Source: a virus
Lineage: Duplodnaviria > Heunggongvirae > Uroviricota > Caudoviricetes
Strand: one strand, 5' to 3'
IMG/VR virus record: IMGVR_UViG_2609459800_000003
Length of the DNA: 36,024 bases
The notes beneath the pieces are model-generated. The model did no database searches, was not told the DNA's origin, and was given only the letters and a program-made list of their open reading frames with translations. The translations under genes and the position numbers were made by a program. Below are positions 3,895 to 34,389 of this stretch, in pieces (positions within the stretch are counted from its first letter, which is position 1; each line of letters starts with the position of its first letter).

Positions 3895-4166
3895 GTATTC
3901 GTATTGAAATTGGCGAACGTTATGTCGTTACCAGTGACAGCTTTCAGTTTATTCTCCACGAGAAAAAGAGAGCGGAAAGCGGTAAAAACGCCGGTCAGGA
4001 ATGGCTGGCGGTGGTTGGTTATTATCCGAAATTAAGCCAGCTCGTTTCCGGCCTGATGCATCACGATATTCTGACCGGAAGCGCAAAGTCTTTTGCTGAT
4101 TTAAACGCGCAGGTTGAGCAACTCAGCAGGCGTTGTTCAGAGGCTTTTGGCTCATATGGCCGTTAA
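3891..4166 (+). CDS. hypothetical early protein (P2 orf83 position)
   Basis: 91 aa; ATG 3891 after GGAGAA; ATGA overlap with the upstream stop; 3' end overlaps the A start. Confidence 0.65.
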   Translation: MSIRIEIGERYVVTSDSFQFILHEKKRAESGKNAGQEWLAVVGYYPKLSQLVSGLMHHDILTGSAKSFADLNAQVEQLSRRCSEAFGSYGR

Positions 4167-6441
4167 AGCCTCCGGGCGTTTTGTCCCTCCGTCAGCATTT
4201 GCCGCAGGCACCGGTAAGGCGTTTGCCGGTGCTTATGCATGGAACGCGCCACGCGAGGCTGTCGGGCGCGAAAGACCCCTTACACGTGACGAGATGCGTC
4301 AGGTGCAAGGTGTTTTATCCACGATTAACCGCCTGCCTTACTTTTTGCGCTCGCTGTTTACTTCACGCTATGACTACATCCGGCGCAATAAAAGCCCGGT
4401 GCACGGGTTTTATTTCCTCACATCCACTTTTCAGCGTCGTTTATGGCCGCGCATTGAGCGTGTGAATCAGCGCCATGAAATGAACACCGACGCGTCGTTG
4501 CTGTTTCTGGCAGAGCGTGACCACTATGCGCGCCTGCCGGGAATGAATGACAAGGAGCTGAAAAAGTTTGCTGCCCGTATCTCATCGCAGCTTTTCATGA
4601 TGTATGAGGAACTCTGTGATGCCTGGGTGGATGCGCATGGCGAAAAAGAATCGCTGTTTACGGATGAGGCGCAGGCTCACCTCTATGGTCATGTTGCTGG
4701 CGCTGCACGTGCTTTCAATATTTCCCCTCTCTACTGGAAAAAATACCGTAAAGGGCAGATGACCACGAGGCAGGCATATTCTGCCATTGCCCGTCTGTTT
4801 AACGATGAGTGGTGGACTCATCAGCTTAAAGGCCAGCGTATGCGCTGGCATGAGGCGTTACTGATTGCTGTCGGGGAGGTAAATAAAGACCGTTCACCTT
4901 ATGCCAGTAAACATGCCATTCGTGATGTGCGTGCGCGCCGCCAGGCAAATCTGGAATTTCTTAAATCGTGTGACCTTGAAAACAGGGAAACCGGCGAACG
5001 CATCGACCTTATCAGTAAGGTGATGGGCAGTATTTCTAATCCTGAAATTCGCCGGATGGAGCTGATGAACACCATTGCCGGTATTGAGCGTTACGCCGCC
5101 GCAGAGGGTGATGTGGGGATGTTTATCACGCTGACCGCGCCGTCAAAGTATCACCCGACTCGTCAGGTCAGAAAAGGCGAAAGTAAAACCGTTCAGCTTA
5201 ATCACGGCTGGAACGATGAGGCATTTAATCCAAAGGATGCGCAGCGTTATCTCTGCCGCATCTGGAGCCTGATGCGCACGGCATTCAAGGATAATGATTT
5301 ACAGGTCTACGGTTTGCGTGTCGTCGAGCCACACCACGACGGAACGCCGCACTGGCATATGATGCTTTTTTGTAATCCACGCCAGCGTAACCAGATTATC
5401 GAAATCATGCGTCGCTATGCGCTCAAAGAGGATGGTGACGAAAGAGGAGCCGCGCGAAACCGTTTTCAGGCAAAACACCTTAACCGGGGCGGTGCTGCGG
5501 GATATATCGCAAAATACATCTCAAAAAATATCGACGGCTATGCACTGGATGGTCAGCTCGATAACGATACCGGCAGGCCGCTGAAAGACACTGCAGCGGC
5601 TGTTACCGCATGGGCGTCAACGTGGCGCATCCCGCAATTTAAAACGGTTGGTCTGCCGACAATGGGGGCTTACCGTGAACTACGCAAATTGCCTCGCGGC
5701 GTCAGCATTGCTGATGAGTTTGACGAGCGCGTCGAGGCTGCACGCGCCGCTGCAGACAGTGGTGATTTTGCGTTGTATATCAGCGCGCAGGGCGGGGCAA
5801 ATGTCCCGCGCGATTGTCAGACTGTCAGGGTCGCCCGTAGCCCGTCGGATGACGTTAACGAGTACGAGGAAGAAGTCGAGAGAGTGGTCGGCATTTACGC
5901 GCCGCATCTCGGCGCGCGTCATATTCATATCACCAGAACGACGGACTGGCGCATTGTGCCGAAAGTGCCGGTCGTTGAGCCTTTGACTTTAAAAAGCGGC
6001 ATCGCCGCGCCTCGGAGTCCTGTCAATAACTGTGGAAAGCTCTCCGGTGGTGATACTTCGTTACCGGTTCCCACACCTTCTGAACATGCCGCAGCCGTGC
6101 TTAATCTGGTTGATGACGGTGTTATCGAATGGAATGAGCCAGAGGTCGTGAGGGCGCTCAGAGGTGCATTAAAACACGGACTGAGAACACCAAATCGTCA
6201 GCAGAGAAACGGAAGCCTGTTAAAACCACATGAAATAGCGCCATCGGCCAGACTGACCCGGTCGGAACGAACGCAAATTACCCGTATCCGCGTTGACCTT
6301 GCTCAGAACGGTATCAGGCCGCAGCGATGGGAGATTGAGGCGCTGGCGCGTGGGGCAACCGTAAATTATGACGGGAAAAAATTCACGTATCCGGTCGCTG
6401 ATGAGTGGCCGGGATTCTCAACAGTAATGGAGTGGACATGA
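4156..6441 (+). CDS. A: rolling-circle replication initiator A (nickase)
   Basis: 761 aa from ATG 4156 (MAVKASGRFVPP...), the N-terminus I recall for P2 A; the track ORF from 4114 is an upstream extension. Conserved HxH-type motif (PHWHMMLF) and tyrosine-containing region (GYIAKYISKN) typical of phiX174/P2-type Rep proteins. Confidence 0.95.
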   Translation: MAVKASGRFVPPSAFAAGTGKAFAGAYAWNAPREAVGRERPLTRDEMRQVQGVLSTINRLPYFLRSLFTSRYDYIRRNKSPVHGFYFLTSTFQRRLWPRIERVNQRHEMNTDASLLFLAERDHYARLPGMNDKELKKFAARISSQLFMMYEELCDAWVDAHGEKESLFTDEAQAHLYGHVAGAARAFNISPLYWKKYRKGQMTTRQAYSAIARLFNDEWWTHQLKGQRMRWHEALLIAVGEVNKDRSPYASKHAIRDVRARRQANLEFLKSCDLENRETGERIDLISKVMGSISNPEIRRMELMNTIAGIERYAAAEGDVGMFITLTAPSKYHPTRQVRKGESKTVQLNHGWNDEAFNPKDAQRYLCRIWSLMRTAFKDNDLQVYGLRVVEPHHDGTPHWHMMLFCNPRQRNQIIEIMRRYALKEDGDERGAARNRFQAKHLNRGGAAGYIAKYISKNIDGYALDGQLDNDTGRPLKDTAAAVTAWASTWRIPQFKTVGLPTMGAYRELRKLPRGVSIADEFDERVEAARAAADSGDFALYISAQGGANVPRDCQTVRVARSPSDDVNEYEEEVERVVGIYAPHLGARHIHITRTTDWRIVPKVPVVEPLTLKSGIAAPRSPVNNCGKLSGGDTSLPVPTPSEHAAAVLNLVDDGVIEWNEPEVVRALRGALKHGLRTPNRQQRNGSLLKPHEIAPSARLTRSERTQITRIRVDLAQNGIRPQRWEIEALARGATVNYDGKKFTYPVADEWPGFSTVMEWT

Positions 6442-6893
6442 TGGCAAAAATTCACGAGGTAAAGCTGCACGCAAAATATTTCGACCTTGTGCTGGAAGGA
6501 AAGAAACGCGCAGAGTTTAGGAAAAATGACCGTAATTATGAGCACGGGGACACGTTGATTTTGCATGAATGGGTGCAGGGTGTGTATACGGGGCGAAAGG
6601 TTGAAGTCCGGATAACAGATGTTACTGACCTGTCAGATTGGCTGGAAGATTATGTCTTGCTAAGTATTGAGCTGCTTAATACAGGCGCATATGAGATTGT
6701 GAACTGGAAAGAACTTAGTGAGCGTGGTCTGGTATTCAGAATTAATCATGAAATTATGCATCAGCTCGGCCTTGCTGTTATGTATGAACCAGAGACGGGG
6801 ATGTCTGGCGGGGCAATGGTTGCCACGGATGGAGCATGGAACTATTCAGATGAACAGATGGAGCGTGCACCGCAAAACGGGTGGCTTGGATAA
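6438..6893 (+). CDS. DUF3850/ASCH-like (PUA-fold) domain protein with uncharacterised C-terminal extension
   Basis: ATG 6438 overlaps the A stop (ATGA) and follows GGAGTGG; N-terminal about 75 aa (HEVKLHAKYFDLVLEGKKRAEFRKNDRNYEHGDTLILHEW) fits the DUF3850/ASCH pattern as I remember it. The track start at 6405 is GTG inside A. Confidence 0.6.
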   Translation: MMAKIHEVKLHAKYFDLVLEGKKRAEFRKNDRNYEHGDTLILHEWVQGVYTGRKVEVRITDVTDLSDWLEDYVLLSIELLNTGAYEIVNWKELSERGLVFRINHEIMHQLGLAVMYEPETGMSGGAMVATDGAWNYSDEQMERAPQNGWLG

Positions 6894-7099
6894 TGCACAG
6901 AATACCAGGCGAGATACCGCACCATAAAACTAAAAATATCAAGCTGATGGCCATTGTTCACCGTCTACAGCAGATTATGGTCAACGAAAATCTGACGCCC
7001 GATGAGCTAGTCGGGTGTGCCGAAATAGTCCGGGATAATTACGTATGGCTTAACTATATCGGTCAGTCCAGCGCTGCACCGCCACCACGCAGACGATAG
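6893..7099 (+). CDS. small hypothetical protein (68 aa)
   Basis: ATG at 6893 overlaps the upstream stop (TAATG); the track start at 6881 is GTG. No recognisable motif. Confidence 0.4.
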   Translation: MHRIPGEIPHHKTKNIKLMAIVHRLQQIMVNENLTPDELVGCAEIVRDNYVWLNYIGQSSAAPPPRRR

Positions 7100-7287
7100 A
7101 GAACGCAGCCAGCTCAGGATTGGCGGGGGATAGAATAACGAGCATAGTGATGCGATTAGACAAACAGACTGACTGGTACACTTAGGATGGTTATAGTGGT
7201 TTCTAAGTGCTTTAGCGATACATCTGGTGGAGTGTTTTACCAACCTCAGAGTTAGCTGAATTTTTAACAAAATACCATTTTGATAGA

Positions 7288-7316
7288 TTTGCCTAATTTA
7301 TTAATTAAACTATACT
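7288..7316 (+). promoter_or_regulatory. candidate sigma70-type promoter for the 7408..8408 module
   Basis: TTTGCC (7288..7293), 17-bp spacer, TATACT (7311..7316) in the AT-rich stretch upstream of the 78-aa ORF; visual match only. Confidence 0.25.
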
Positions 7317-7407
7317 GGACTTATACACAGTGTTCTGTTAATTGTTAGGTTGGTAAGATATTGTGAGGAGGTGATTACTATCTTGGCATCAATCAAGTGG
7401 AGGTTAA

Positions 7408-7644
7408 ATGATGAATATATTTGAACGTATTATAGGTAAAGCTGCCATTGAAAAGGAAAGAGAACTGGCGAGGAGGCTTGAAGCATCTGGAACAAACACT
7501 GTTGAGGTGGTAGGTCGAGGCGCGATTATCACGTCTAAAGAAGACTTGGCAAGCTCAGATACAGTAAAATTGATGAAAATTAAAGCAAGAAGAATAGTTT
7601 CTGAGCAGGTAAAGCAAGAAGAAAAAATGGCTAAAGGGAATTAA
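7408..7644 (+). CDS. small charged hypothetical protein (78 aa), first gene of a two-gene cargo module
   Basis: ATG 7408 with strong GGAGG 5 nt upstream; AT-rich codon usage; stop 3 nt before the next start. Confidence 0.55.
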   Translation: MMNIFERIIGKAAIEKERELARRLEASGTNTVEVVGRGAIITSKEDLASSDTVKLMKIKARRIVSEQVKQEEKMAKGN

Positions 7645-7646
7645 TA

Positions 7647-8408
7647 ATGTTTGCTTTATTAATTATTCCATTACTTGTGAGTGGTTATATTGTATTAACC
7701 ACTCATCCTTATCATTTCTATAGATTACACCGTTATGATGGGCAGTTGTTATATATGAAGTCAGCCGCCTTTGGTCTGTGGTGTTTTATATGGACATTGA
7801 TTATAGCTTACTTAATAAAATGGATATGTCCGAGCTTCCATCCTGTCACGATGGTTCGGGAACAATTAGATCTCAAACTTAGTGACAATGGTACTGAAAG
7901 AATCATAGGATGGATGATTTTACTTTCATGTGGATCGATATTTTTGGCTTGGATATGGAGTGCCGGTGCTAGATATTTGGTTATATATAGAGCTAAAATT
8001 ATAAATTATATCCAAGGGGTAAAGGCTGCCAATATTGATTATGAGAATCTTGTCATGCTAAGGATGAGGCAAGAGCTTATTAATGATAATCCAATGGATG
8101 AAATATTTTTTGATTCGTTAGTTGATAGACGTTCAATACTTATTACGTTGCAAAATAAAAAGACATATGTAGGAATTGTTAACGCATTAGGTGAGCCTAA
8201 CGAGAAAGAAGGACCTAACCAGTATGTTTCAATCTATCCTATTATCTCTGGGTATAGAGATAAGGATTCATTGAAAGTAATCTTGGTGAATGAATATAGA
8301 GAACTTGAGGATGCTGATACTAGTATCATCTTTCCACTAAAAGAAATTTCGCAAGTTTCTTGGTTTGATATGGATATTCATAAAATAGTTGAAAATAATA
8401 AGGTGTAG
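7647..8408 (+). CDS. membrane protein with three predicted N-terminal TM helices and a soluble C-terminal domain of about 145 aa, function unknown
   Basis: 253 aa; hydrophobic segments around residues 2-19, 40-59 and 86-105; AT-rich; tightly coupled to the upstream 78-aa ORF; no catalytic motif recognised. Confidence 0.7.
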   Translation: MFALLIIPLLVSGYIVLTTHPYHFYRLHRYDGQLLYMKSAAFGLWCFIWTLIIAYLIKWICPSFHPVTMVREQLDLKLSDNGTERIIGWMILLSCGSIFLAWIWSAGARYLVIYRAKIINYIQGVKAANIDYENLVMLRMRQELINDNPMDEIFFDSLVDRRSILITLQNKKTYVGIVNALGEPNEKEGPNQYVSIYPIISGYRDKDSLKVILVNEYRELEDADTSIIFPLKEISQVSWFDMDIHKIVENNKV

Positions 8409-8411
8409 TAA

Positions 8412-8436
8412 ATGGTCACCTATAAAAGGTGACCAT
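8412..8436. terminator. bidirectional hairpin between convergent cargo operons
   Basis: Perfect 10-bp inverted repeat ATGGTCACCT / AGGTGACCAT with 5-nt loop, between the stop at 8408 (+) and the stop at 8442 (-); T-rich stretch on the + side. Confidence 0.5.
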
Positions 8437-8441
8437 AATGC

Positions 8442-10706
8442 TTATTTTTGACGAATCCTGATTTTTGGTTGTTCACGAACAACAATATCAGTTTCTTTCC
8501 AACCAAGATTATTTATTTCAACCTCGGCTTCGTTGTAGACTGTAGTAGAATTGGCAAGAGATCTTAACGTAATAGCCAATACAGCACGTTGAGGTGAAGA
8601 TAGAGGCTCTTGCTCTGCTCGTCTCTGAACATCAAGTTTAAGTCTCCATTGCTCCCCATTTATACCTTGCGGAAATTGTTTTCTATAAACTTTGACTGGA
8701 GACCATTTGAAGCCATTTTCTATCAGTACCTTTTCAAATAATTCACTCTTTTCTTTTATTTGTGGAATTTTTCCGCTATGTATCCATTTAGCGTTAACTG
8801 GATCATAAGTGTAAGTCCCGAATGACACATCCACATTAGAACGGCAATATTCAGATGGGTAGTCATAATCAAGCGGTGGAGAATAAACGAGTGTCATAAT
8901 AATTTCACCTGTGAATTTTCCATCCTCAGTACGTAATGACTGTGGTATTACAAATGGCGTTCTACTGAATTCAATACCTTCTCGGGTATCTATTTCAAAT
9001 AGAAATGTAATCTCATTTTTATTGCAACCAATAATATCATTTATATGATCGCTTGGACGTCCAAATCCTTGATAATTAAACGCATAATGCTCCGTTTTGG
9101 CTGGTGAGTTTTTTAACGCAGAATGAATTAATAGTGCCTTGATACGTTCAGGCGATGGTGAAATAGAACCATTAACATCTAGTTCATGCCACAGTGATGC
9201 CGCTAAACTTGAGATTAACGGTGCTGATAAACTTGTGCCAATACTTTCGCAAAGAGCATTGTCCTCGCCAATAGCTATGATTCCGGTATGTTCACAGTTT
9301 AATTTACTGTCACAATTACCTCCAAAGTGATTTATCTCTGGTTTGGGTATAAAGGCTGGGCCGGGACCTCTTCTAGAAAAAGATGAAGGTTCAAATCTTT
9401 TGACCACAGAGTCAGACGATTCTAAATGGGCAACTGAGCCAACAGTTAATGAACGAACAGAATCTGCGGGGGCTGATATTCTGTCATGCCCACCTAATTC
9501 TTGAGGAGGCCAGGTTCGTTGAGGATCATAAATGTAGTTGCCGGATGCTACGACGAAAAGACAATCATGCTCATCATGAAGTGCATTTAAAAAATGCCCC
9601 AATTCAGAGAAGCTGTCTTCAGAACATGGGGATTGACAACCTAATGACAGGTTCCATACACGTACTTCTGGATAGGTGGTCACAGCCTCTCGGATAGCTT
9701 TCATTAATTGTGGCAATTTGAGCGTACCATCTTTGGGAAAGGCTGCAACATCAACAATTTCAGCTTGGCATTGAGGAAAACCAGCATAGTTATTCAACCA
9801 TCTTCCATTAATTGCTAAACTTGCAACCATGTTCCCATGAGAATAGTCGTGTTCTCCTTTTACTAAATCTAAACTATCCCAAATCCATGGCCTAAGTATG
9901 TTGTTATTGGGATCGACTCCGCTATCTATAATTCCGAGTAGTGGATAATGTTTATCCTCTTGAGGTAAGGGAAAATCATCTAGGTCTAGAGTTTCAGCAG
10001 GAATATATTGCGATACTGTATGAGTAAGACCAAATGTTGGCATAGGTTCTAATTTTCGTATGCCAATAAAACTTGCCAGTTGGGCGATGTTATCATTCCC
10101 TTTTACTTCATATATACTCAAATCTGAACTGATATCATACTTTTTGGGTTTTTGTATTCCTAGTTCATCTGCAAATTCCATTAATTCTTTGTCGATACTG
10201 CGGTTAGTTGTTCTATCTTTATGGTCAAAGAGTTTCAGAAGAAAACTATCTGATTTATTTTTATCTATAACATCATGGTTAAGACTAAAAGGTTCGATCT
10301 TTTCAATTACAGCAATATGTACTGTCCCATTATGAGAATTAGTGCTATTTTCAATTTTTTTGCGAAGTTGTGCTAACCCTTTTTCAGTAACACTTATAAG
10401 TAATTCTCCAAAATTATCACTGCCTATTACGGGACATGTATTATCACCTAATAGGCTTGATGGGCGATGTGACTTAGCAAGAGCTTTTTCATGAAGAGTA
10501 ACTCTAGCCACCGCCGGTATATTGGGCCATTTTTTAAATGAGCTCTGGAAAAAATTTTTAACGTCATCGACTTCTTGTTTGAGTCTATTTTTTAGACTAG
10601 TTGTTACTGTTCGGATAGGTTGTTTCTTTCCGAAATTATATGTTTTTTCAGTAAAATCTTGAGGTGTCGCCTCAATTATTTTTATTGGTCTTTCTTTGTT
10701 ACTCAT
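8442..10706 (-). CDS. subtilisin-like serine protease (peptidase S8), cytoplasmic; IetS-like
   Basis: 754 aa; full subtilase signature: Asp (GIIDSGVD), His (HGNMVASLAING), oxyanion Asn (VVASGNY), Ser (GTSLSAPLISSLAA); no N-terminal signal peptide; N- and C-terminal extensions of about 250 aa each around the catalytic core; start overlaps the stop of the upstream ATPase. Confidence 0.9.
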   Translation of the reverse strand: MSNKERPIKIIEATPQDFTEKTYNFGKKQPIRTVTTSLKNRLKQEVDDVKNFFQSSFKKWPNIPAVARVTLHEKALAKSHRPSSLLGDNTCPVIGSDNFGELLISVTEKGLAQLRKKIENSTNSHNGTVHIAVIEKIEPFSLNHDVIDKNKSDSFLLKLFDHKDRTTNRSIDKELMEFADELGIQKPKKYDISSDLSIYEVKGNDNIAQLASFIGIRKLEPMPTFGLTHTVSQYIPAETLDLDDFPLPQEDKHYPLLGIIDSGVDPNNNILRPWIWDSLDLVKGEHDYSHGNMVASLAINGRWLNNYAGFPQCQAEIVDVAAFPKDGTLKLPQLMKAIREAVTTYPEVRVWNLSLGCQSPCSEDSFSELGHFLNALHDEHDCLFVVASGNYIYDPQRTWPPQELGGHDRISAPADSVRSLTVGSVAHLESSDSVVKRFEPSSFSRRGPGPAFIPKPEINHFGGNCDSKLNCEHTGIIAIGEDNALCESIGTSLSAPLISSLAASLWHELDVNGSISPSPERIKALLIHSALKNSPAKTEHYAFNYQGFGRPSDHINDIIGCNKNEITFLFEIDTREGIEFSRTPFVIPQSLRTEDGKFTGEIIMTLVYSPPLDYDYPSEYCRSNVDVSFGTYTYDPVNAKWIHSGKIPQIKEKSELFEKVLIENGFKWSPVKVYRKQFPQGINGEQWRLKLDVQRRAEQEPLSSPQRAVLAITLRSLANSTTVYNEAEVEINNLGWKETDIVVREQPKIRIRQK

Positions 10707-11866
10707 AATATCTCTCTATAGTTCTTAGTTAGCCTTGACACTTTAGCATTTGAAAGCCCTAGTATTTTTGCTATCTTTCGTATTGTAAATCTTTTGGGAT
10801 TGTATTCTCTGAGAGTGGTCACAATCTTTATAAGTAAATTATCTTCTTCATCAAATGTAACTCCCTTCGCTTCTAAGATAGCCTCGACTAAAAATCGGGT
10901 ATCGATTTGTTTATTATTGTAAACCAGAGCGTGTCGCTCAGATCTTAAGCAGCATTGTTCTATAAATGAGCAGTTTAGCCCTGAGGATATTTCCGCAAGG
11001 TCATCAACAAAATCGTCATATGTGGCTTTTATGTTTGAATATTGTTCAAATAGTTGTTTTCTGACTTCAAAATCAGGCAATCCAATAGATATTCTATACT
11101 CAAAGCGCCTCCAAACTGCGCTATCTAGAAGATTTTCATGATTACTTGCAGCAATCAATATTGTTTCTTCAGGTAGATTGTCAATATTTTGCAATAAAGA
11201 AACCACCACCCTCTTCAGTTCACCTAACTCATGCTGATCATCTCTAGCCTTTGCTAGAGAATCTAGTTCATCTAGAAATAAAACACATGGTGCTTTACTT
11301 GCATACTCAAATAGCTGCCTGATATTTTTAGAAGTAGACCCCAGATATGATGAGACTAAGGAGTCACATCTTGCAGTAAGAAGCGGTAAATTTAGACAGG
11401 ATGCAATATATTTTGATGTCAAGGTTTTACCACAACCTGGTGGCCCATATAAAATCATAGAGGATGTCACGCCAAGACCGGCATCCTTTAATTCTTTAGC
11501 TCGTTCAGTGAAAGTCAAAAATTCTTTAATTTTTTTCAGAGTGCTATCTTTCAACAATGGGAGTTGAATTTCAGAAGACGGTTGAGTTACGTCTGCTAAA
11601 TCAAATTTAGTTTCTTTATCTACAGGTAATGTATCAAGACGTTCAAAAATAGGTGATGTACTACGTGATACTTTCTGCAAGTTAAACGTGTTTTTATCTT
11701 GAATACTACCTCTAATGGCTGAAGCAAGCTCAGGCAGCCCCATAGAATCATAGGAACGCGCGAGTTTCGAAGCCTGCCGAACAAAAGCAACTTTATCCCC
11801 TTTGAGTCCAAGACTGATAAGCTGCGAAAGTATCTCGTTTGTGGTCATTTGTGATACAAACCTCAT
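10703..11866 (-). CDS. classic-clade AAA+ ATPase with C-terminal HTH-like tail; IetA-like
   Basis: 387 aa; Walker A GPPGCGKT, Walker B VLFLDELD, sensor-1/arginine-finger region (AASN...WRRFEYRISIGLP); C-terminal KRFTIRKIAKILGLSNAKVSRLTK resembles an HTH. Start codon uncertain (ATG at 11866 has no clear SD; an in-frame ATG lies 18 nt downstream). Confidence 0.9.
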   Translation of the reverse strand: MRFVSQMTTNEILSQLISLGLKGDKVAFVRQASKLARSYDSMGLPELASAIRGSIQDKNTFNLQKVSRSTSPIFERLDTLPVDKETKFDLADVTQPSSEIQLPLLKDSTLKKIKEFLTFTERAKELKDAGLGVTSSMILYGPPGCGKTLTSKYIASCLNLPLLTARCDSLVSSYLGSTSKNIRQLFEYASKAPCVLFLDELDSLAKARDDQHELGELKRVVVSLLQNIDNLPEETILIAASNHENLLDSAVWRRFEYRISIGLPDFEVRKQLFEQYSNIKATYDDFVDDLAEISSGLNCSFIEQCCLRSERHALVYNNKQIDTRFLVEAILEAKGVTFDEEDNLLIKIVTTLREYNPKRFTIRKIAKILGLSNAKVSRLTKNYREIL

Positions 11867-12107
11867 TAATCTGTTGTCTAAATGGCTTATAGGTGAGACA
11901 AATTTCTATTTTAATGTAGTTTATATGTATTTTGGTGAAACGAACACTATGTTTTACATAAATCTTTCAGGTTTGGAGTTCTTGGAGGGCATAGAGTTGC
12001 ATCAATTTGCATTCTAATTAGACTTTTTTATTGCTATCGTATTCTACATGTGACTAGGTCTGCCCTTCCTGATGCGTTTGCATTAAAACCGCCCCATGAA
12101 GCGGGCG

Positions 12108-12295: not shown

Positions 12296-13330
12296 TCAGC
12301 CGTTGTCAGTGTCCAGTGAGTAGTTTTTAAAGCGGATGACCTCCTGACCGAGCCAGCCGTTTATCTCGCGGATCCTGTCCTGTAACGGGATAAGCTCATT
12401 GCGGACAAAGACCTTTGCCACTTTCTCAATATCACCCAGCGACCCGACGTTCTCCGGCTTGCCGCCCATCAACTGAAAGGGGATGCGGTGCGCGTCCAGC
12501 AGGTCAGCGGCGCTGGCTTTTTTGATATTAAAAAAATCGTCCTTCGTCGCCACTTCACTGAGGGGGATAATTTTAATGCCGTCGGCTTTCCCCTGCGGGG
12601 CATAGAGAAACAGATTTTTAAAGTTATTGCGGCCTTTCGACTTAACCATGTTTTCGCGAAGCATTTCGATATCGTTGCGATCCTGCACGGCATCGGTGAC
12701 GTACATGATGTATCCGGCATGTGCGCCGTTTTCGTAATACTTGCGGCGGAACAGCGTGGCCGACTCATTCAGCCAGGCAGAGTTAAGGGCGCTGAGATAT
12801 TCCGGCAGGCCGTACAGCTCCTGATTAATATCGGGCTCCAGCAGGTGAAACACGGAGCCGGGCGCGAAGGCTGTCGGCTCGTTGAAGGACGGCACCCACC
12901 AGTAAACATCCTCTTCCACGCCACGACGGGTATATTTTGCCGGTGAGGTTTCCAGTCTGATGACCTTACCGGTGGTGCTGTAGCGCTTTTCCAGAAACGC
13001 ATTACCGAACACCAGAAAATCCAGCACAAAACGGCTGAAATCCTGCTGGGAAAGCCACGGGTGCGGGATAAACGTTGAAGCCAGAATATTACGTTTGACG
13101 TAAATCGGTGAGCTGTGATGCACGGCAGCACGCAGGCTTTTTGCCAGACCGGTAAAGCTGACCGGCGGCTCATACCATCTGCCGTTACTGATACATTCGA
13201 CGTAATCCAGAATGTCACGGCGGTCGAGCACCGGCACCGGCTCACCAAAGGTGAATGCCTCCATTTTCGGGGCGCTGGCGGTCATTTTTTTTGCCGCAGG
13301 TTGCGGTGTTTTCCCTTTTTTCTTGCTCAT
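12296..13330 (-). CDS. Q: portal protein Q
   Basis: 344 aa as in P2 Q; start overlaps the P stop (ATGA). Confidence 0.92.
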   Translation of the reverse strand: MSKKKGKTPQPAAKKMTASAPKMEAFTFGEPVPVLDRRDILDYVECISNGRWYEPPVSFTGLAKSLRAAVHHSSPIYVKRNILASTFIPHPWLSQQDFSRFVLDFLVFGNAFLEKRYSTTGKVIRLETSPAKYTRRGVEEDVYWWVPSFNEPTAFAPGSVFHLLEPDINQELYGLPEYLSALNSAWLNESATLFRRKYYENGAHAGYIMYVTDAVQDRNDIEMLRENMVKSKGRNNFKNLFLYAPQGKADGIKIIPLSEVATKDDFFNIKKASAADLLDAHRIPFQLMGGKPENVGSLGDIEKVAKVFVRNELIPLQDRIREINGWLGQEVIRFKNYSLDTDNG

Positions 13331-26181: not shown

Positions 26182-26709
26182 ATGCAGCATTTGATAAATA
26201 TAACGGCAGGTAATCCAAAAACGGTTGAACAATATCAATTGACAAAGAACTTTGATGTTGTCTGGTTTTTTACAGAAGATGGTAAGAACTGGTACGAAGA
26301 ACAAAAGTATTTTGCTGATGACACGATAAAAATAGCGTACGACAAAGATAATATCATCCGCTATGTGGAAAAGGATGTGACAGCTATCAGACCGGATGGA
26401 TTAAGTGTGGTTGAAGTGGCGGATATTACTGCTAACCGACGGGCGGACATTTCAGGGAACTGGATGTTTAAGGACGGCAAAGTGATTAAACGCATTTATA
26501 CGACAGAGGAATTGCAGCAGCAGGCAGAAAATCGGAAAGCCAGACTTCTTGCAGATGCTGAATCCGTAATTTTGCCGCTGGAACGCGCTGTCAGGCTGAA
26601 TATGGCGACGGATGAAGAGCGCACACGACTGGAAGCATGGGAACGCTACAGCGTTCTGGTCAGTCGTGTGGATCCTGCAAATCCTGAATGGCCGGAAATG
26701 CCGCAATAA
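26182..26709 (+). CDS. G: tail fiber assembly chaperone G
   Basis: 175 aa as in P2 G; conserved C-terminus ...[14 protein letters not shown]. Confidence 0.9.
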
Positions 26710-26890
26710 GTTGTATGAGCTTACATATCTATTGCGTAGAGTAAAGCATAATCTGACAGTCCGCTCTGTGCCAGAAGCGGACGTAGCGGCAGCATACATA
26801 ACCTTATGATTTCTTAAAATTTTCCGCTTGGTTTCTGATTGACTAATGAAAATTAATTGAAATTATAAAGCATTCGCAGTAACTTGTGCG

Positions 26891-27136
26891 GTGCCGATAA
26901 TTTCATTCTACCCAATATCATTTATGATTGTAGATAAGAGTAGTGAAAAATATAACAACGGATATAGTGTTGCAATACCACTTGGAGCCGTGAAAATGGA
27001 ACTGGCCGATGATGTACTAAAAATAAACCTTTCATCATGGAATGATATTAAAACAGGATTTCCTTACACAGGGATTAATGAGTATGAGTTACTCATATTA
27101 GATGAGAATCTTTCATTTATAACTTATAAAAAATAA
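26891..27136 (+). CDS. hypothetical small protein at the Z/fun locus (start uncertain)
   Basis: The track start at 26891 is GTG; in-frame ATGs at 26924 and 26996, the latter preceded by GGAG (a 46-aa product). AT-rich; no motif recognised. Confidence 0.35.
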   Translation: MPIISFYPISFMIVDKSSEKYNNGYSVAIPLGAVKMELADDVLKINLSSWNDIKTGFPYTGINEYELLILDENLSFITYKK

Positions 27137-27191
27137 CAATTAACAATACTTCACTTATGTGTGAGTGGTTTTAAAGAGTAAATAATTCATA

Positions 27192-27494
27192 ATGGAAAAA
27201 AGTATGACAATTGAAACCATAAAAATACTAGCGGCAATTAGTAGCATCATTGGTTCTATGATTCTTGCCTATCGAGTTACAGGGATTCTTGCAGCACTTT
27301 CTCTTGCAATAAATTGCCATGAAGAAAACATTAAACAATTAATGCCAACCAATAAGGGGGATGTTTATTATCTCGCAAATGCAACTACGCACGTTAAAAA
27401 TGCGCAAAAGAAACCGCTTCTAATCACGGGGTTTATCTTTCTAATTGCATCTGGTTTTTTGCAGTTTACAGCGTTGATAATGGCAAATATTTAA
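27192..27494 (+). CDS. small membrane protein with two predicted TM helices, Z/fun locus cargo
   Basis: 100 aa; hydrophobic segments around residues 10-30 and 75-98; AT-rich; weak Shine-Dalgarno; followed by a terminator at 27664..27690. Confidence 0.5.
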   Translation: MEKSMTIETIKILAAISSIIGSMILAYRVTGILAALSLAINCHEENIKQLMPTNKGDVYYLANATTHVKNAQKKPLLITGFIFLIASGFLQFTALIMANI

Positions 27495-27663
27495 CAATGG
27501 AATGATACCACCGGTGGTGCGGCTGAAACGATTTGTACGTCATTTAAGCCGCATCGAAATTTAAAGTAACGTCCGCAATTCGCTCCAAGCAGACTGTCAG
27601 ATTTGATAGCGTTTCGGCTATGTAAATAGTCAGTCGGAAAATAAGTGAGTACAAATCAGGACA

Positions 27664-27690
27664 GGCGGGCGAATTGCCCGCCTTTTCTTT
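27664..27690 (+). terminator. rho-independent terminator closing the Z/fun cargo, upstream of the FI late promoter
   Basis: GGCGGGC-gaatt-GCCCGCC hairpin followed by TTTTCTTT. Confidence 0.6.
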
Positions 27691-27786
27691 ATCTGTTGTT
27701 TCATCCACTGACCAGCCAGGTCAAATAGCGTCTCATGCACTGCCCAACAGAAAATAGTTGCACCCATTAACCACGGAGTTAAACGG

Positions 27787-28977
27787 ATGAGTGACTATCA
27801 TCACGGCGTGCAGGTGCTGGAGATTAACGACGGCACCCGCGTCATTTCCACCGTATCCACCGCCATTGTTGGCATGGTCTGCACGGCCAGCGATGCGGAT
27901 GCGGAAATCTTCCCCCTCAATAAACCGGTGCTGATTACCAATGTGCAGAGCGCAATTGCAAAGGCCGGTAAAAAAGGCACGCTGGCGGCGTCGTTACAGG
28001 CCATCGCTGACCAGTCAAAACCGGTCACCGTTGTCGTACGTGTGGAAGACGGCACTGGCGACGACGAGGAAACGAAACTCGCGCAGACCGTTTCCAATAT
28101 CATCGGCACTACCGACGAAAACGGTCAGTACACCGGACTGAAAGCCCTGCTGGCGGCGGAGTCGGTAACCGGTGTTAAACCGCGTATTCTCGGTGTGCCG
28201 GGGCTGGATACCAAAGAGGTGGCTGTTGCACTGGCATCAGTCTGTCAGAAGCTGCGCGCTTTCGGGTATATCAGCGCATGGGGCTGTAAAACCATTTCCG
28301 AGGTGAAAGCTTACCGCCAGAATTTCAGCCAGCGTGAGCTGATGGTCATCTGGCCGGATTTCCTCGCATGGGATACGGTCGCCAGTACCACCGCCACCGC
28401 GTATGCCACCGCCCGTGCGCTGGGTCTGCGCGCTAAAATCGACCAGGAGCAGGGCTGGCATAAAACGCTGTCCAACGTCGGGGTGAACGGTGTTACCGGC
28501 ATCAGCGCATCTGTATTCTGGGATTTGCAGGAGTCCGGTACTGATGCTGACCTGCTTAACGAGTCAGGTGTCACTACGCTGATTCGCCGCGACGGTTTCC
28601 GCTTCTGGGGTAACCGTACCTGCTCTGATGACCCGCTGTTCCTCTTTGAAAACTACACCCGCACCGCGCAGGTGTTGGCCGACACGATGGCTGAGGCGCA
28701 CATGTGGGCGGTGGATAAGCCCATCACCGCAACGCTGATTCGCGACATCGTTGACGGCATCAATGCCAAATTCCGTGAGCTGAAAACAAACGGCTATATC
28801 GTGGATGCGACCTGCTGGTTCAGCGAAGAATCCAACGATGCGGAAACCCTCAAGGCCGGAAAACTGTATATCGACTACGACTATACACCGGTGCCTCCTC
28901 TCGAAAACCTGACCCTGCGCCAGCGTATTACCGATAAATACCTGGCAAATCTGGTCACCTCGGTTAACAGCAATTAA
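27787..28977 (+). CDS. FI: tail sheath protein FI
   Basis: 396 aa as in P2 FI; GGAG Shine-Dalgarno. Confidence 0.93.
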   Translation: MSDYHHGVQVLEINDGTRVISTVSTAIVGMVCTASDADAEIFPLNKPVLITNVQSAIAKAGKKGTLAASLQAIADQSKPVTVVVRVEDGTGDDEETKLAQTVSNIIGTTDENGQYTGLKALLAAESVTGVKPRILGVPGLDTKEVAVALASVCQKLRAFGYISAWGCKTISEVKAYRQNFSQRELMVIWPDFLAWDTVASTTATAYATARALGLRAKIDQEQGWHKTLSNVGVNGVTGISASVFWDLQESGTDADLLNESGVTTLIRRDGFRFWGNRTCSDDPLFLFENYTRTAQVLADTMAEAHMWAVDKPITATLIRDIVDGINAKFRELKTNGYIVDATCWFSEESNDAETLKAGKLYIDYDYTPVPPLENLTLRQRITDKYLANLVTSVNSN

Positions 28978-34089: not shown

Positions 34090-34170
34090 TGTTTTTATTT
34101 TATCTATTTGTTTTATAAGGATAAATTAACTAAAATGGCACCATCAACAAAACCGGAAGAGGTGCTCGCG

Positions 34171-34389
34171 ATGTTTCATTGTCCTTTATGCCAGCATGCC
34201 GCACATGCGCGTACAAGCCGCTATATCACTGACACGACAAAAGAGCGTTATCACCAGTGTCAGAACGTGAATTGCAGCGCCACGTTCATCACTTATGAGT
34301 CGGTACAGCGATACATCGTAAAGCCGGGAGAAGTCCACGCCGTAAGGCCGCACCCGTTACCGTCAGGGCAGCAAATTATGTGGATGTAA
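34171..34389 (+). CDS. ogr: late gene activator Ogr (zinc-finger transcription factor)
   Basis: 72 aa from ATG 34171 (MFHCPLCQHAAHARTSRYITDTTKERYHQCQNVNCSATF...), with the C2-C2 zinc-binding cysteines; the track ORF from 34108 is an upstream extension. Confidence 0.92.
   Translation: MFHCPLCQHAAHARTSRYITDTTKERYHQCQNVNCSATFITYESVQRYIVKPGEVHAVRPHPLPSGQQIMWM

What the first reader, a model, noticed from the sequence alone, without database searches (positions are those of the whole stretch)
7408..8408. Uncharacterised two-gene module: 78-aa charged protein plus 253-aa three-helix membrane protein
The two ORFs are tightly coupled (stop 3 nt before the next ATG), have good ribosome-binding sites and their own AT-rich promoter region, and end at a dedicated hairpin. 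The larger protein has three N-terminal TM helices and a soluble C-terminal domain with no motif I can place. The architecture (small soluble partner plus membrane effector) is typical of abortive-infection and superinfection-exclusion modules, but I cannot assign it to any named system. This is the best candidate in the window for a previously undescribed system.
Basis: inference. Interest (0 to 1): 0.8.

Follow-up and report, generated by a model that had tools for sequence, protein, structure and literature searches.

The report
Uncharacterised SOS-box membrane gene pair beside IetAS
A real, widely conserved but functionally untested two-gene cassette (a small cytoplasmic protein plus a three-helix membrane protein with an Sm-like barrel) sits in the P2 prophage defence hotspot, and in this lineage it always travels with the IetAS protease/ATPase defence system, whose way of acting is unknown.

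Summary
A 78-aa ORF (7408-7644) and a 253-aa ORF (7647-8408) are 2 nt apart, in low-GC cargo of the P2 A-Q hotspot.

Neither protein matches Pfam, NCBIfam, PADLOC or PDB sequences. Rousset et al. 2022 already list the pair as unannotated P2-hotspot "system 57" (75 occurrences). I did not find it among the systems they cloned.

New here:
- **Co-conservation.** The small gene lies directly upstream of the large one in 55 of 63 loci spanning several phyla. The large-protein family has about 2,600 clusters at 50% identity.
- **Fold.** The large protein has three TM helices (N-out, C-in) and a cytoplasmic Sm/LSm/Hfq/WYL-like beta-barrel.
- **Link to IetAS.** Every sampled member of the >=55%-identity clade lies convergent to IetS-IetA, in P2-like prophages, a lambdoid prophage and integrative islands. 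All four proteins co-diverge (r 0.89-0.98). A marine clade is linked in the same way to a ClpP-like serine protease.
- **Regulation.** The best LexA-box match in the whole window (7313-7332, 19 bits) overlaps the -10 of the pair's promoter, and two orthologous loci have perfect boxes.

Best reading (confidence 0.35): a toxin-antitoxin-like or abortive-infection membrane effector, restrained by its small partner and possibly gated by a protease. No phenotype is known.

The parts
7289..7316 (+). Promoter-like site: -35 TTGCCT (7289-7294), 16-nt spacer, -10 TATACT (7311-7316)
   Evidence: Consensus scan, 9 of 12 matches. On its own this is not above chance. The TATACT-CTG junction is conserved in L021 and L065.
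7313..7332 (.). Predicted LexA (SOS) box TACTGGACTTATACACAGTG (CTG-N10-CAG), overlapping the -10 hexamer
   Evidence: Best match to a LexA PWM in the whole 36-kb window: 19.2 bits, next best 11.2, training sites 13.4-26.6. Orthologous sites score 21.2 (L021), 24.1 (L065, perfect CTGT-N8-ACAG), 24.7 (L067, perfect) and 14.5 (L071). The PWM was checked on umuD and dinI promoters in other loci. It was built from E. coli LexA sites recalled from memory.
7408..7644 (+). Small gene, 78 aa: charged cytoplasmic protein with an N-terminal helix, an invariant VVGRG hairpin (residues 33-38) and a C-terminal helix
   Evidence: ORF. phrog_37504, unknown function. 221 homologues, all small stand-alone proteins. 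An HMM finds it immediately upstream of the large gene in 55 of 63 loci. AF2 pLDDT 74, pTM 0.37.
7647..8408 (+). Large gene, 253 aa: inner-membrane protein with three TM helices and a cytoplasmic C-terminal domain
   Evidence: ORF. phrog_3630, unknown function. Alignment A1. AF2 pLDDT 81. 2,624 family clusters.
7647..7976 (+). Membrane region: TM1 (residues 1-22), cytoplasmic loop with the near-invariant RLHRYDGQLLYxK motif (residues 26-38), TM2 (39-64), periplasmic loop, TM3 (85-110)
   Evidence: Family-averaged hydropathy. Net loop charges of +2.1, -0.3 and +2.0 give an N-out, C-in topology. Invariant P8, S12, G13, G32, Q33, L35, Y36, K38.
8091..8366 (+). Cytoplasmic Sm-like beta-barrel (residues ~149-240: one helix plus five or six strands), with conserved loops EPNEKEGP (183-190), PxxSGYRDK (198-206) and SWF (238-240)
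8412..8436 (.). Perfect 10-bp hairpin between the convergent stops of the 253-aa gene and ietS; a likely bidirectional terminator
   Evidence: Terminator scan. A strong hairpin of unrelated sequence occupies the same 24-48-nt spacer in 7 of 8 divergent four-gene blocks.
8442..10706 (-). ietS: S8 subtilase of the IetAS defence / toxin-antitoxin system, an invariably linked neighbour in this clade
   Evidence: PADLOC IetS 1.1e-273. Pfam Peptidase_S8. Co-divergence with the large protein, r = 0.98.
10703..11866 (-). ietA: AAA+ ATPase partner of IetS
   Evidence: NCBIfam IteA_antiphage 7.6e-116, at 387 bits below the 510-bit equivalog cut-off. phrog_3757.

Best explanation
The two ORFs form a mobile, translationally coupled cassette made of two protein families with no described function.

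The small product is a cytoplasmic partner with an invariant VVGRG hairpin. The large product is an inner-membrane protein. Its three conserved TM helices carry, on the cytoplasmic face, a conserved loop and an Sm-like beta-barrel, a fold that typically builds hexameric or heptameric rings.

I propose it works as a toxin-antitoxin-like or abortive-infection membrane effector. The small protein holds the membrane protein inactive. When the small protein is lost or displaced, the membrane protein assembles and compromises the membrane, which stops growth of the cell and of any phage inside it.

In this lineage transcription is predicted to be LexA-repressed, so it would be induced by DNA damage. 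The cassette is also a fixed partner of the IetAS protease/ATPase system. In this lineage the IetS protease (and in a marine clade the linked ClpP-like protease) may be what removes the small partner, or the two modules may act as cooperating layers.

Shown: gene reality, co-conservation, topology, fold class, linkage to IetAS, presence of an SOS-box-like site.

Inferred: oligomerisation, toxicity, the inhibitor role of the small protein, protease gating, any anti-phage effect.
For: - **Coupled pair.** The gap is 2 nt here and -4 to +21 nt in most loci. An HMM of the small protein hits exactly one ORF, directly upstream, in 55 of 63 loci from Gamma-, Beta- and Alphaproteobacteria and other phyla.
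- **Mobile cargo.** GC is 0.32-0.41 against 0.53 for the P2 backbone. The pair occurs in the P2 A-Q hotspot in E. coli, Yersinia, Rahnella, Klebsiella and Salmonella phages. It lies next to the integrase of lambdoid prophages, between replication and lysis genes, and in integrative islands. In some loci it neighbours bSEFIR, a short pAgo or Bub-type ubiquitin-like genes.
- **Architecture.** Three TM segments with N-out, C-in topology. Sm/LSm/Hfq/WYL-like barrel. TM1 is nearly invariant, more than a simple anchor would need.
- **The small protein is not a compact monomer.** pTM is 0.37 and the invariant hairpin is unresolved. This fits folding on a partner.
- **Protease linkage.** All sampled members of the >=55% clade lie convergent to IetS-IetA, in four kinds of genetic setting. 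Identities co-vary with r 0.89-0.98. In 5,426 complete E. coli genomes, all 12 genomes with near-identical ietS also carry the pair, and the one examined of three genomes with a 67%-identical ietS does too. A second clade co-diverges with a divergently transcribed ClpP-like SDH protease in three marine genera.
- **SOS box.** 19 bits, overlapping the -10, with perfect boxes in two orthologous loci. From my own knowledge, LexA control is known for other small toxin modules (tisB, dinQ, dinJ-yafQ, yafNO).
- **IetAS background.** It is described as a protease-toxin / ATPase-antitoxin pair with an unknown anti-phage mechanism. It gave limited protection when cloned alone.
Against: - No phenotype of any kind is known. 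I did not find the pair among the systems cloned by Rousset et al., nor in the held supplements of two other screens.
- Many distant members sit among housekeeping genes: TonB receptors, malic enzyme, an MFS transporter, an aminotransferase. About ten Pseudomonas oryzihabitans-group species share one syntenic site. This is atypical for defence cargo.
- The pair often occurs without any linked protease, so protease gating cannot be general.
- The canonical IteAS locus lacks the pair, so IetAS does not need it.
- The SOS box is absent in three of the eight Iet-linked lineages and in other clades. The PWM rests on sites recalled from memory.
- No complex or multimer model could be made.
Confidence: 0.35

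Rival explanations
1. Addiction or dormancy module with no direct anti-phage role. The pair is a toxin-antitoxin-like cassette that stabilises the mobile element carrying it, or causes SOS-induced growth arrest. It is found near defence genes only because it shares the same cargo slots.
For: - The distribution looks like that of toxin-antitoxin modules: patchy, isolated two-gene insertions in prophages, islands and housekeeping neighbourhoods.
- The small gene is upstream and the larger one downstream, with overlapping or abutting stop and start codons.
- A predicted SOS box is present.
- The linked IetAS was itself first described as a plasmid-stabilising toxin-antitoxin system.
- One locus lies directly downstream of umuDC.
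Against: - The small protein has no recognisable DNA-binding antitoxin domain.
- The pair is enriched in validated defence hotspots and near known defence genes.
- Stable co-divergence with a defence system suggests shared selection.
Confidence: 0.2
2. Non-lethal superinfection exclusion. The membrane complex blocks genome entry or an early membrane step of incoming phages, in the manner of SieA, Imm or Sp. It acts independently of IetAS.
For: - It is an inner-membrane protein encoded by temperate phages at classical lysogenic-conversion positions: next to the integrase and in the P2 hotspot.
- It often occurs alone, with no enzymatic partner.
Against: - A LexA-repressed promoter would keep it low in the resting lysogen.
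- The conserved parts are cytoplasmic, not periplasmic.
- Chromosomal syntenic copies in Pseudomonas are not phage-borne.
Confidence: 0.15
3. Regulator or safety catch of IetAS, not an effector. The membrane pair senses a signal such as DNA damage, membrane state or a nucleic-acid ligand on the Sm-like domain. It then controls or buffers IetS activity, or protects the host from IetS.
For: - Strict four-gene linkage and co-divergence across four kinds of genetic setting.
- Another IetAS variant recruited a third component that modulates toxicity, ietH.
Against: - The pair exists widely without IetAS.
- IetAS exists without the pair.
- The convergent orientation, with separate promoters and an intervening terminator, argues for separable units.
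Confidence: 0.1
4. A function for the phage's own lytic cycle. Induced by SOS together with prophage induction, the pair would act on the membrane, for example in lysis timing, energy state or exclusion during lytic growth.
For: - A predicted SOS box.
- In Photobacterium the pair lies directly upstream of the holin and lysozyme genes.
- In a Klebsiella P2-like phage, SOS-box-like sites lie upstream of the dinI operon in the same post-A region.
Against: - It is variable cargo present in a small minority of P2-like phages: 75 of 18,150 hotspot loci and 12 of 5,426 genomes.
- It also occurs in non-phage islands and plain chromosomal sites.
Confidence: 0.1
5. An ordinary housekeeping or stress-related membrane protein pair, for example for ion or envelope homeostasis, that is occasionally picked up by mobile elements.
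For: - Vertical, syntenic conservation across about ten Pseudomonas species, among metabolic genes.
- Housekeeping neighbours in several other phyla.
- A large family of uniform architecture.
Against: - Presence is very patchy: about 0.6% of complete E. coli genomes across three variants.
- Low GC and mobile contexts in Enterobacterales.
- No link to any metabolic operon.
Confidence: 0.05

Closest known systems
IetAS (Gao_Iet; NCBI 'IteA/IteS'): AAA+ ATPase plus S8 subtilase defence / toxin-antitoxin system
   Same: It is physically joined to the pair in this window and in every sampled relative of >=55% identity. It shares the hotspot, the low GC and the evolutionary history.
   Different: The pair has no homology to IetA or IetS. 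Canonical IteAS loci lack it, and most clades of the pair lack IetAS. The published definition of IetAS has two genes.
Prophage-hotspot systems with transmembrane effectors (Rousset 2022: 2TM+1TM+TIR from phage AC1, Hydrolase+3TM, RT-nitrilase+TM)
   Same: The same P2/P4 hotspot logic: short cassettes in which a TM protein is the presumed suicide effector.
   Different: No PADLOC model of these systems matches either protein, nor any of 46 family members beyond chance. The partner here is a 78-aa protein with no enzymatic domain.
Sm / LSm / Hfq and WYL small beta-barrels
   Different: There is no sequence similarity. The classical members are soluble. Here the barrel is tethered to three TM helices and has its own motifs (EPNEKEGP, PxxSGYRDK, SWF).
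MscS-type mechanosensitive channels (three TM helices followed by an Sm-like beta domain, heptameric); this description is from my own knowledge
   Same: The same order of parts: three TM helices, then a cytoplasmic Sm-like barrel. This suggests a ring-shaped channel.
LexA-regulated toxin modules (tisB/istR, dinQ, dinJ-yafQ, yafNO); from my own knowledge
   Same: A small two-component module with a predicted SOS box overlapping its promoter. TisB and DinQ are membrane-depolarising.
   Different: Those toxins are tiny peptides or ribonucleases, unrelated in sequence and fold. LexA binding here is predicted, not shown, and it is confined to part of one clade.
Protease-activated pore formers (bacterial gasdermins with adjacent proteases); from my own knowledge
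   Same: A membrane-acting protein genetically tied to a serine protease: S8 in one clade, ClpP-like in another.
   Different: There is no gasdermin fold or homology. The pair often lacks any linked protease. No cleavage has been tested.

Membership tests
IetAS (Gao_Iet) | Adjacent AAA+ ATPase (IetA) and S8 subtilase (IetS) | tested here: met
   This holds for the neighbouring genes 8442-11866. PADLOC IetS 1.1e-273 and Pfam Peptidase_S8. NCBIfam IteA 7.6e-116, though below the equivalog cut-off.
IetAS (Gao_Iet) | The two target proteins are recognised components of the system | tested here: not met
   No PADLOC or NCBIfam Iet model matches either protein. The canonical E. coli iteAS locus has no copy of the pair.
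Known and candidate defence systems in PADLOC-DB v2.0.0 (including the Rousset, Vassallo, Millman and Gao systems and the PDC candidates) | HMM match of at least one component | tested here: not met
   No hits at E <= 1 for either window protein. Among 46 family members only scattered hits appear, with E >= 0.002 and at most 4 members. The database dates from 2023, so newer systems are not covered.
Sm / LSm / Hfq fold | An N-terminal helix followed by a strongly bent five-stranded barrel | tested here: met
Sm / LSm / Hfq fold | Sequence-level family membership (Pfam LSM, Hfq or WYL) | tested here: not met
   No Pfam hit for the protein or for 46 relatives. hhalign against Hfq gives probability 0.9%.
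Sm / LSm / Hfq fold | Ring oligomer (hexamer or heptamer) and nucleic-acid or ligand binding | not testable with these tools
   No multimer prediction or biochemistry was available.
MscS-like channels | Homology to the MS_channel TM3 / beta-domain core | tested here: not met
   No Pfam MS_channel hit. hhalign of A1 against an MscS sequence gives probability 0.2%. MscS is absent from the top structural hits.
Type II-like toxin-antitoxin module | Two small adjacent co-transcribed genes, coupled and co-conserved | tested here: met
   Gaps of -4 to +21 nt in most loci. The small gene is present upstream in 55 of 63 loci.
Type II-like toxin-antitoxin module | Toxicity of one product, neutralised by the other; an antitoxin with a DNA-binding domain | not testable with these tools
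No known antitoxin or DNA-binding domain was detected in the small protein.
SOS (LexA) regulon | CTGT-N8-ACAG box at the promoter | tested here: inconclusive
   The window site is CTGG-N8-ACAG, 19.2 bits, the best in 36 kb, overlapping the -10. Perfect boxes occur in L065 and L067. The PWM recovers umuD and dinI promoters. The PWM comes from recalled sites, and LexA binding is untested.
P2 hotspot cargo (Rousset et al. 2022) | Located between gpA and gpQ of a P2-like prophage | tested here: met
   A at 4114-6441 and portal Q at 12296-13330. The pair is listed as system 57, with 75 occurrences, in Table S5B.

The most novel reading that the evidence does not exclude
The pair is the missing membrane arm of a four-gene Iet-type system, and more generally of a class of protease-gated Sm-ring membrane effectors. 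On infection or DNA damage, a dedicated serine protease removes the small VVGRG protein. That protease is IetS, released from IetA, in this lineage, and a ClpP-like protease in marine bacteria. The three-TM/Sm-like protein can then assemble into a ring-shaped channel that collapses the membrane potential. This would explain how IetAS, whose mechanism is unknown, kills or arrests cells.
Probability: 0.15. Interest if true: 0.8.

Novelty: new variant of a known kind. Interest (0 to 1): 0.6.

Why it matters
- **Two undescribed families.** Together they form a conserved two-gene unit, and the large-protein family alone has about 2,600 clusters at 50% identity. Neither has a Pfam entry or a known function. 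The pair sits in one of the best validated reservoirs of anti-phage systems.
- **An unreported architecture.** I found no report of a membrane-tethered Sm-like barrel with a small hairpin partner as a defence or toxin effector.
- **A route into IetAS.** The permanent linkage gives a concrete, testable hypothesis for a defence system whose mechanism is still unknown. It also identifies a natural four-gene block that studies cloning only ietAS would miss.
- **A parallel protease link.** The linkage to a ClpP-like protease in another clade hints at a general pairing of protease and membrane effector.
- **If it has no phage phenotype.** It would still be a new SOS-linked membrane toxin-antitoxin candidate.

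Tried and rejected
**Searches that returned nothing useful**
- Pfam, NCBIfam, PADLOC and PDB sequence searches on both proteins and on 46 relatives gave nothing usable. NCBIfam STM3941_fam scored E 0.018 at 15 bits against a 40-bit cut-off, and I rejected it as chance.
- PHROGs place both proteins in families of unknown function.
- An Rfam scan of 6800-8600 gave only sub-threshold chance hits.
- BFVD returned only uncharacterised small Sm-like phage proteins.

**Hypotheses tested and not supported**
- Homology to MscS: hhalign probability 0.2%, and MscS is absent from the top structural hits.
- Sequence relation to Hfq: hhalign probability 0.9%.
- Rst_2TM_1TM_TIR kinship. I considered it because a distant copy of the pair sits beside a TIR-like gene in Klebsiella phage ST15-OXA48phi14.1. 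That neighbour is bSEFIR, and the pair matches no PADLOC model.
- A family-wide SOS box. It is found only in part of the Iet-linked clade.

**Tools or sources that were unavailable or not informative**
- The AFDB50 fold library was not available.
- I did not run a fold search on the small protein, because its model is not a compact fold (pTM 0.37).
- A viral-contig scan for IetS relatives lacking the pair returned only seven loci, all with the pair.
- Gao et al. 2020 could not be read, so I do not know which IetAS lineage they cloned or what the insert contained.
- Neither the N-terminal peptide of the large protein nor the RefSeq accessions searched occur in the held supplements of DefensePredictor or Vassallo 2022. 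Full-text search for both accessions found nothing. These files may be truncated.
Full report
**1. The observation**

The window is a complete P2-like prophage. It runs from the integrase (584-1597) and gene A (4114-6441), through portal Q (12296-13330), to ogr (34108-34389), and is flanked by a host Peptidase_U32 gene.

Between A and Q lies the cos-proximal hotspot that Rousset et al. showed to be a reservoir of anti-phage systems. Its cargo, about 7200-12000, has GC 0.32-0.41 against about 0.53 for the backbone.

The two ORFs are as described: 7408-7644 (78 aa) and 7647-8408 (253 aa), both on the + strand. The gap is 2 nt, not 3, and both genes have Shine-Dalgarno sequences. The hairpin at 8412-8436 is real. 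It lies in the 33-nt gap between the stop of the 253-aa gene and the stop of a convergent gene, so it is shared, not dedicated.

**2. The neighbours**

The convergent genes are ietS (8442-10706; PADLOC IetS 1.1e-273; Pfam Peptidase_S8) and ietA (10703-11866; an AAA+ ATPase). IetA matches NCBIfam IteA at 387 bits, below the 510-bit equivalog cut-off.

IetAS is a validated defence system. It was first described as a toxin-antitoxin pair with a protease toxin and an ATPase antitoxin, and its anti-phage mechanism is unknown. Cloned alone, it gave limited protection in one study.

Upstream of the pair are a DUF3850/ASCH protein (6405-6893) and a 72-aa ORF (6881-7099), both common after gene A.

**3. 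Database status of the two proteins**

Neither protein matches Pfam, PADLOC v2, NCBIfam (one sub-threshold chance hit) or any PDB sequence. Scanning all 46 aligned relatives against Pfam and PADLOC gives only scattered chance hits. PHROGs place them in phrog_37504 and phrog_3630, both of unknown function.

The exact pair is listed in Rousset et al. 2022, Table S5B, as P2-hotspot system 57. The entry gives 75 occurrences, no domains, and '2 TM in protein 1'. It does not occur in their table of cloned systems. Neither the N-terminal peptide of the large protein nor the RefSeq accessions searched occur in the held supplements of DefensePredictor or Vassallo et al..

So the pair is catalogued, but I found no test or functional characterisation of it.

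**4. Co-conservation**

The large protein has 241 homologues in one search. A full profile search finds 2,624 cluster representatives at 50% identity with E <= 1e-3, and 1,282 with E <= 1e-10. Nearly all are 240-340 aa with one full-length match, and none is fused to another domain.

A scan of one genome per species returned 43 loci. They come from Gamma-, Beta- and Alphaproteobacteria, plus single contigs labelled Nostoc, Turneriella, Acidobacteria and Flavobacterium.

An HMM of the small protein hits exactly one ORF in 55 of 63 loci. That ORF is always immediately upstream of the large gene, on the same strand, usually -4 to +21 nt away. The eight misses are pseudogenised, truncated or the most divergent copies, and most of these still have an unassigned small ORF upstream.

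The small family has 221 homologues, all stand-alone proteins of 61-128 aa. Its consensus is ...SYxSVRVVGRGTVKIDPxEV...AKxIV, with invariant V34 and G38.

All-against-all clustering of neighbouring genes shows that only the pair itself is conserved across loci.

**5. Anatomy**

The family-averaged hydropathy shows three TM segments, at residues 1-22, 39-64 and 85-110. Net loop charges of +2.1, -0.3 and +2.0 give an N-out, C-in topology.

TM1 (MFALLIIPLLVSG) and the first cytoplasmic loop (RLHRYDGQLLYxK) are nearly invariant.

The fold assignment rests on structure only. Pfam and hhalign show no relation to Hfq, and none to MscS, which has a similar order of parts.

The family's strongest motifs lie in or next to the barrel loops: EPNEKEGP, PxxSGYRDK and SWF.

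The small protein models as two helices flanking an unresolved hairpin (pLDDT 74, pTM 0.37). This suggests it folds on a partner.

**6. Where the cassette lives**

| Setting | Examples |
|---|---|
| Next to the integrase at the end of lambdoid prophages | E. coli variant at 48% identity (17 of 5,426 complete genomes); Klebsiella |
| Between replication and lysis genes | A Photobacterium prophage |
| Alone in the P2 hotspot | Salmonella phages SEN4 and SEN5 |
| P2 hotspot with bSEFIR | Klebsiella phage ST15-OXA48phi14.1 |
| Beside other defence genes | A short pAgo; Bub-type ubiquitin-like genes |
| Directly downstream of umuDC | L082 |
| Among housekeeping genes | One site syntenic across about ten Pseudomonas oryzihabitans-group species |

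This patchy pattern resembles that of toxin-antitoxin modules and small defence cassettes. It does not by itself prove defence.

**7. Linkage to IetAS**

Every sampled member of the clade with >=55% identity to the window protein has IetS-IetA convergent downstream.

- P2-like hotspots in E. coli, Yersinia and Rahnella. The Citrobacter youngae copy (L021) and a viral contig (L077) also carry the block, but I did not determine which kind of element holds them.
- A lambdoid prophage in E. coli, between the ydaU/ydaV replication genes and the nin region.
- Integrase-associated islands in a Salmonella/Citrobacter-type locus and in Providencia.
- An IS-flanked chromosomal site in Pectobacterium.

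Identities to the window copy move together for small / large / IetS / IetA: 89/87/91/85, 72/76/78/66, 63/76/77/69, 50/60/63/55 and 53/56/60/55. Over 28 locus pairs the Pearson r is 0.89-0.98, and 0.98 for the large protein against IetS.

The 24-48-nt convergent spacer holds a strong hairpin of unrelated sequence in 7 of 8 blocks.

In 5,426 complete E. coli genomes, the 12 with a near-identical ietS are the same 12 that carry the pair. Three more genomes have a 67%-identical ietS. I examined one of them (H35), and it has the pair beside it.

The canonical iteAS locus, on an integrated conjugative element, has no trace of the pair. Other clades of the pair have no IetAS.

The four-gene block has therefore moved as a unit among different elements while diverging to about 55% identity. 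Hotspot cargo is otherwise swapped rapidly, which makes this persistence notable.

**8. A second protease link**

In Pseudoalteromonas, Photobacterium and Shewanella the pair has a divergently transcribed ClpP-like SDH serine protease 250-560 bp upstream. Two of the three contexts are identified: an island with an integrase gene and a lambdoid prophage. Protease, small and large proteins co-diverge at 52/52/52, 54/47/51 and 64/70/59%. In Pseudoalteromonas an IetA-like AAA+ ATPase lies next to the protease.

Two unrelated serine-protease families tied to two clades of the pair is suggestive. It rests on few lineages.

**9. Predicted SOS control**

Aligning the upstream regions of the Iet-linked clade revealed a conserved element.

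I built a LexA PWM from 19 E. coli sites recalled from memory. It scores 7313-7332 (TACTGGACTTATACACAGTG) at 19.2 bits. That is the best site in the whole 36-kb window; the next best is 11.2, and the training sites range from 13.4 to 26.6. The site overlaps the -10-like TATACT of the promoter-like match TTGCCT-16-TATACT.

Orthologous sites score 21.2 (C. youngae), 24.1 (Pectobacterium) and 24.7 (Providencia), the last two being perfect CTGT-N8-ACAG, and 14.5 (Rahnella). Three lineages have lost the site.

As controls, the PWM's top hit in an unrelated locus lies 20 nt upstream of umuD (27.1 bits), and in a Klebsiella phage it lies upstream of the dinI operon. Sites of at least 15 bits occur at 0.023 per kb over 1.08 Mb. 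One of 200 shuffles of 7001-8500 reached 18.8 bits.

No such site precedes ietA. This is a prediction, and LexA binding is untested.

**10. Interpretation**

The firm results are these:
- a real, ancient and mobile two-gene unit;
- a membrane protein with a cytoplasmic Sm-like barrel;
- a small partner protein;
- permanent linkage to IetAS in this lineage;
- an SOS-box-like operator.

From these I infer a toxin-antitoxin-like or abortive-infection membrane effector, restrained by its small partner and possibly unlocked by the linked protease (confidence 0.35).

The rivals are:
- a pure addiction or dormancy module (0.2);
- non-lethal superinfection exclusion (0.15);
- a regulator of IetAS (0.1);
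- a function in the phage's own lytic cycle (0.1);
- a housekeeping role (0.05).

The housekeeping contexts of distant members and the complete lack of phenotypic data are the main reasons for caution.

**11. Novelty and score**

The pair belongs to no named family or system. Its functional kind, a short hotspot cassette with a transmembrane effector, is known, so I rate it a new variant of a known kind.

It is not a first sighting, given Rousset's Table S5B. The fold, the family-wide coupling, the IetAS and ClpP-like protease linkages and the SOS box appear in none of the papers and supplements I searched.

I score interest at 0.6. It is a well-supported candidate that makes the unknown mechanism of IetAS testable, but its function is not demonstrated.

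Noticed in passing
window 26710-27786 (ORF 27192-27494): A second variable spot lies between the tail-fibre assembly gene (26182-26709) and the next large ORF (27787-28977; by position the P2 FI sheath gene, not checked). It holds a 100-aa ORF with no Pfam match, at the position where, from memory, P2 carries Z/fun.
   Followed up: no
window 6405-7099: A DUF3850/ASCH + DUF7415 protein (162 aa as listed; RefSeq annotates a shorter start) and a 72-aa ORF (phrog_11386) follow gene A directly. They recur in many P2 hotspot arrangements in Rousset Table S5A. Their role is unknown.
   Followed up: partly
window 7366-7424: A strong Shine-Dalgarno-like GAGGAGG (7366-7372) lies in the predicted 5' leader. 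It is followed by a possible 13-codon uORF (TTG 7383 to TGA 7424) that overlaps the start of the 78-aa gene. It could be a translational control element or chance.
   Followed up: no
L063 4783-7492 (Klebsiella phage ST15-OXA48phi14.1): A very distant copy of the pair (72 + 280 aa, 21% identity) sits in the same P2 hotspot, followed by a 69-aa ORF and a bSEFIR defence gene. LexA-box-like sites lie upstream of the adjacent dinI operon.
   Followed up: partly
L012 1570-6801; L013 4160-6903; L042 6299-9005: A three-gene block, [ClpP-like SDH protease, divergent][small][large], is conserved in Pseudoalteromonas, Photobacterium and Shewanella. In L012 an IetA-like 670-aa AAA+ ATPase lies beside the protease. 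PADLOC recognises neither of the two proteases tested, from L012 and L042.
   Followed up: partly
L027-L041 (Pseudomonas oryzihabitans / luteola group): The pair occupies one syntenic chromosomal site across about ten species, between metabolic genes (aminotransferase, MFS transporter, GGDEF protein). This looks like stable vertical inheritance and is unusual for defence cargo.
   Followed up: partly
L082 2901-5849; L046 8001-13579: Two loci place the pair next to SOS mutagenesis genes. One lies directly downstream of umuD-umuC, which has a 27-bit LexA box. The other is convergent to a DNA polymerase III alpha-type gene (dnaE2-like by my reading) followed by an unannotated 507-aa ORF.
   Followed up: no
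window 10703-11866: This IetA scores 387 bits against NCBIfam IteA_antiphage (cut-off 510). RefSeq annotates the IetA/IetS pair only as 'AAA family ATPase' and 'S8 family peptidase'. This Iet lineage is therefore not named as a defence system by NCBI's pipeline.
   Followed up: partly
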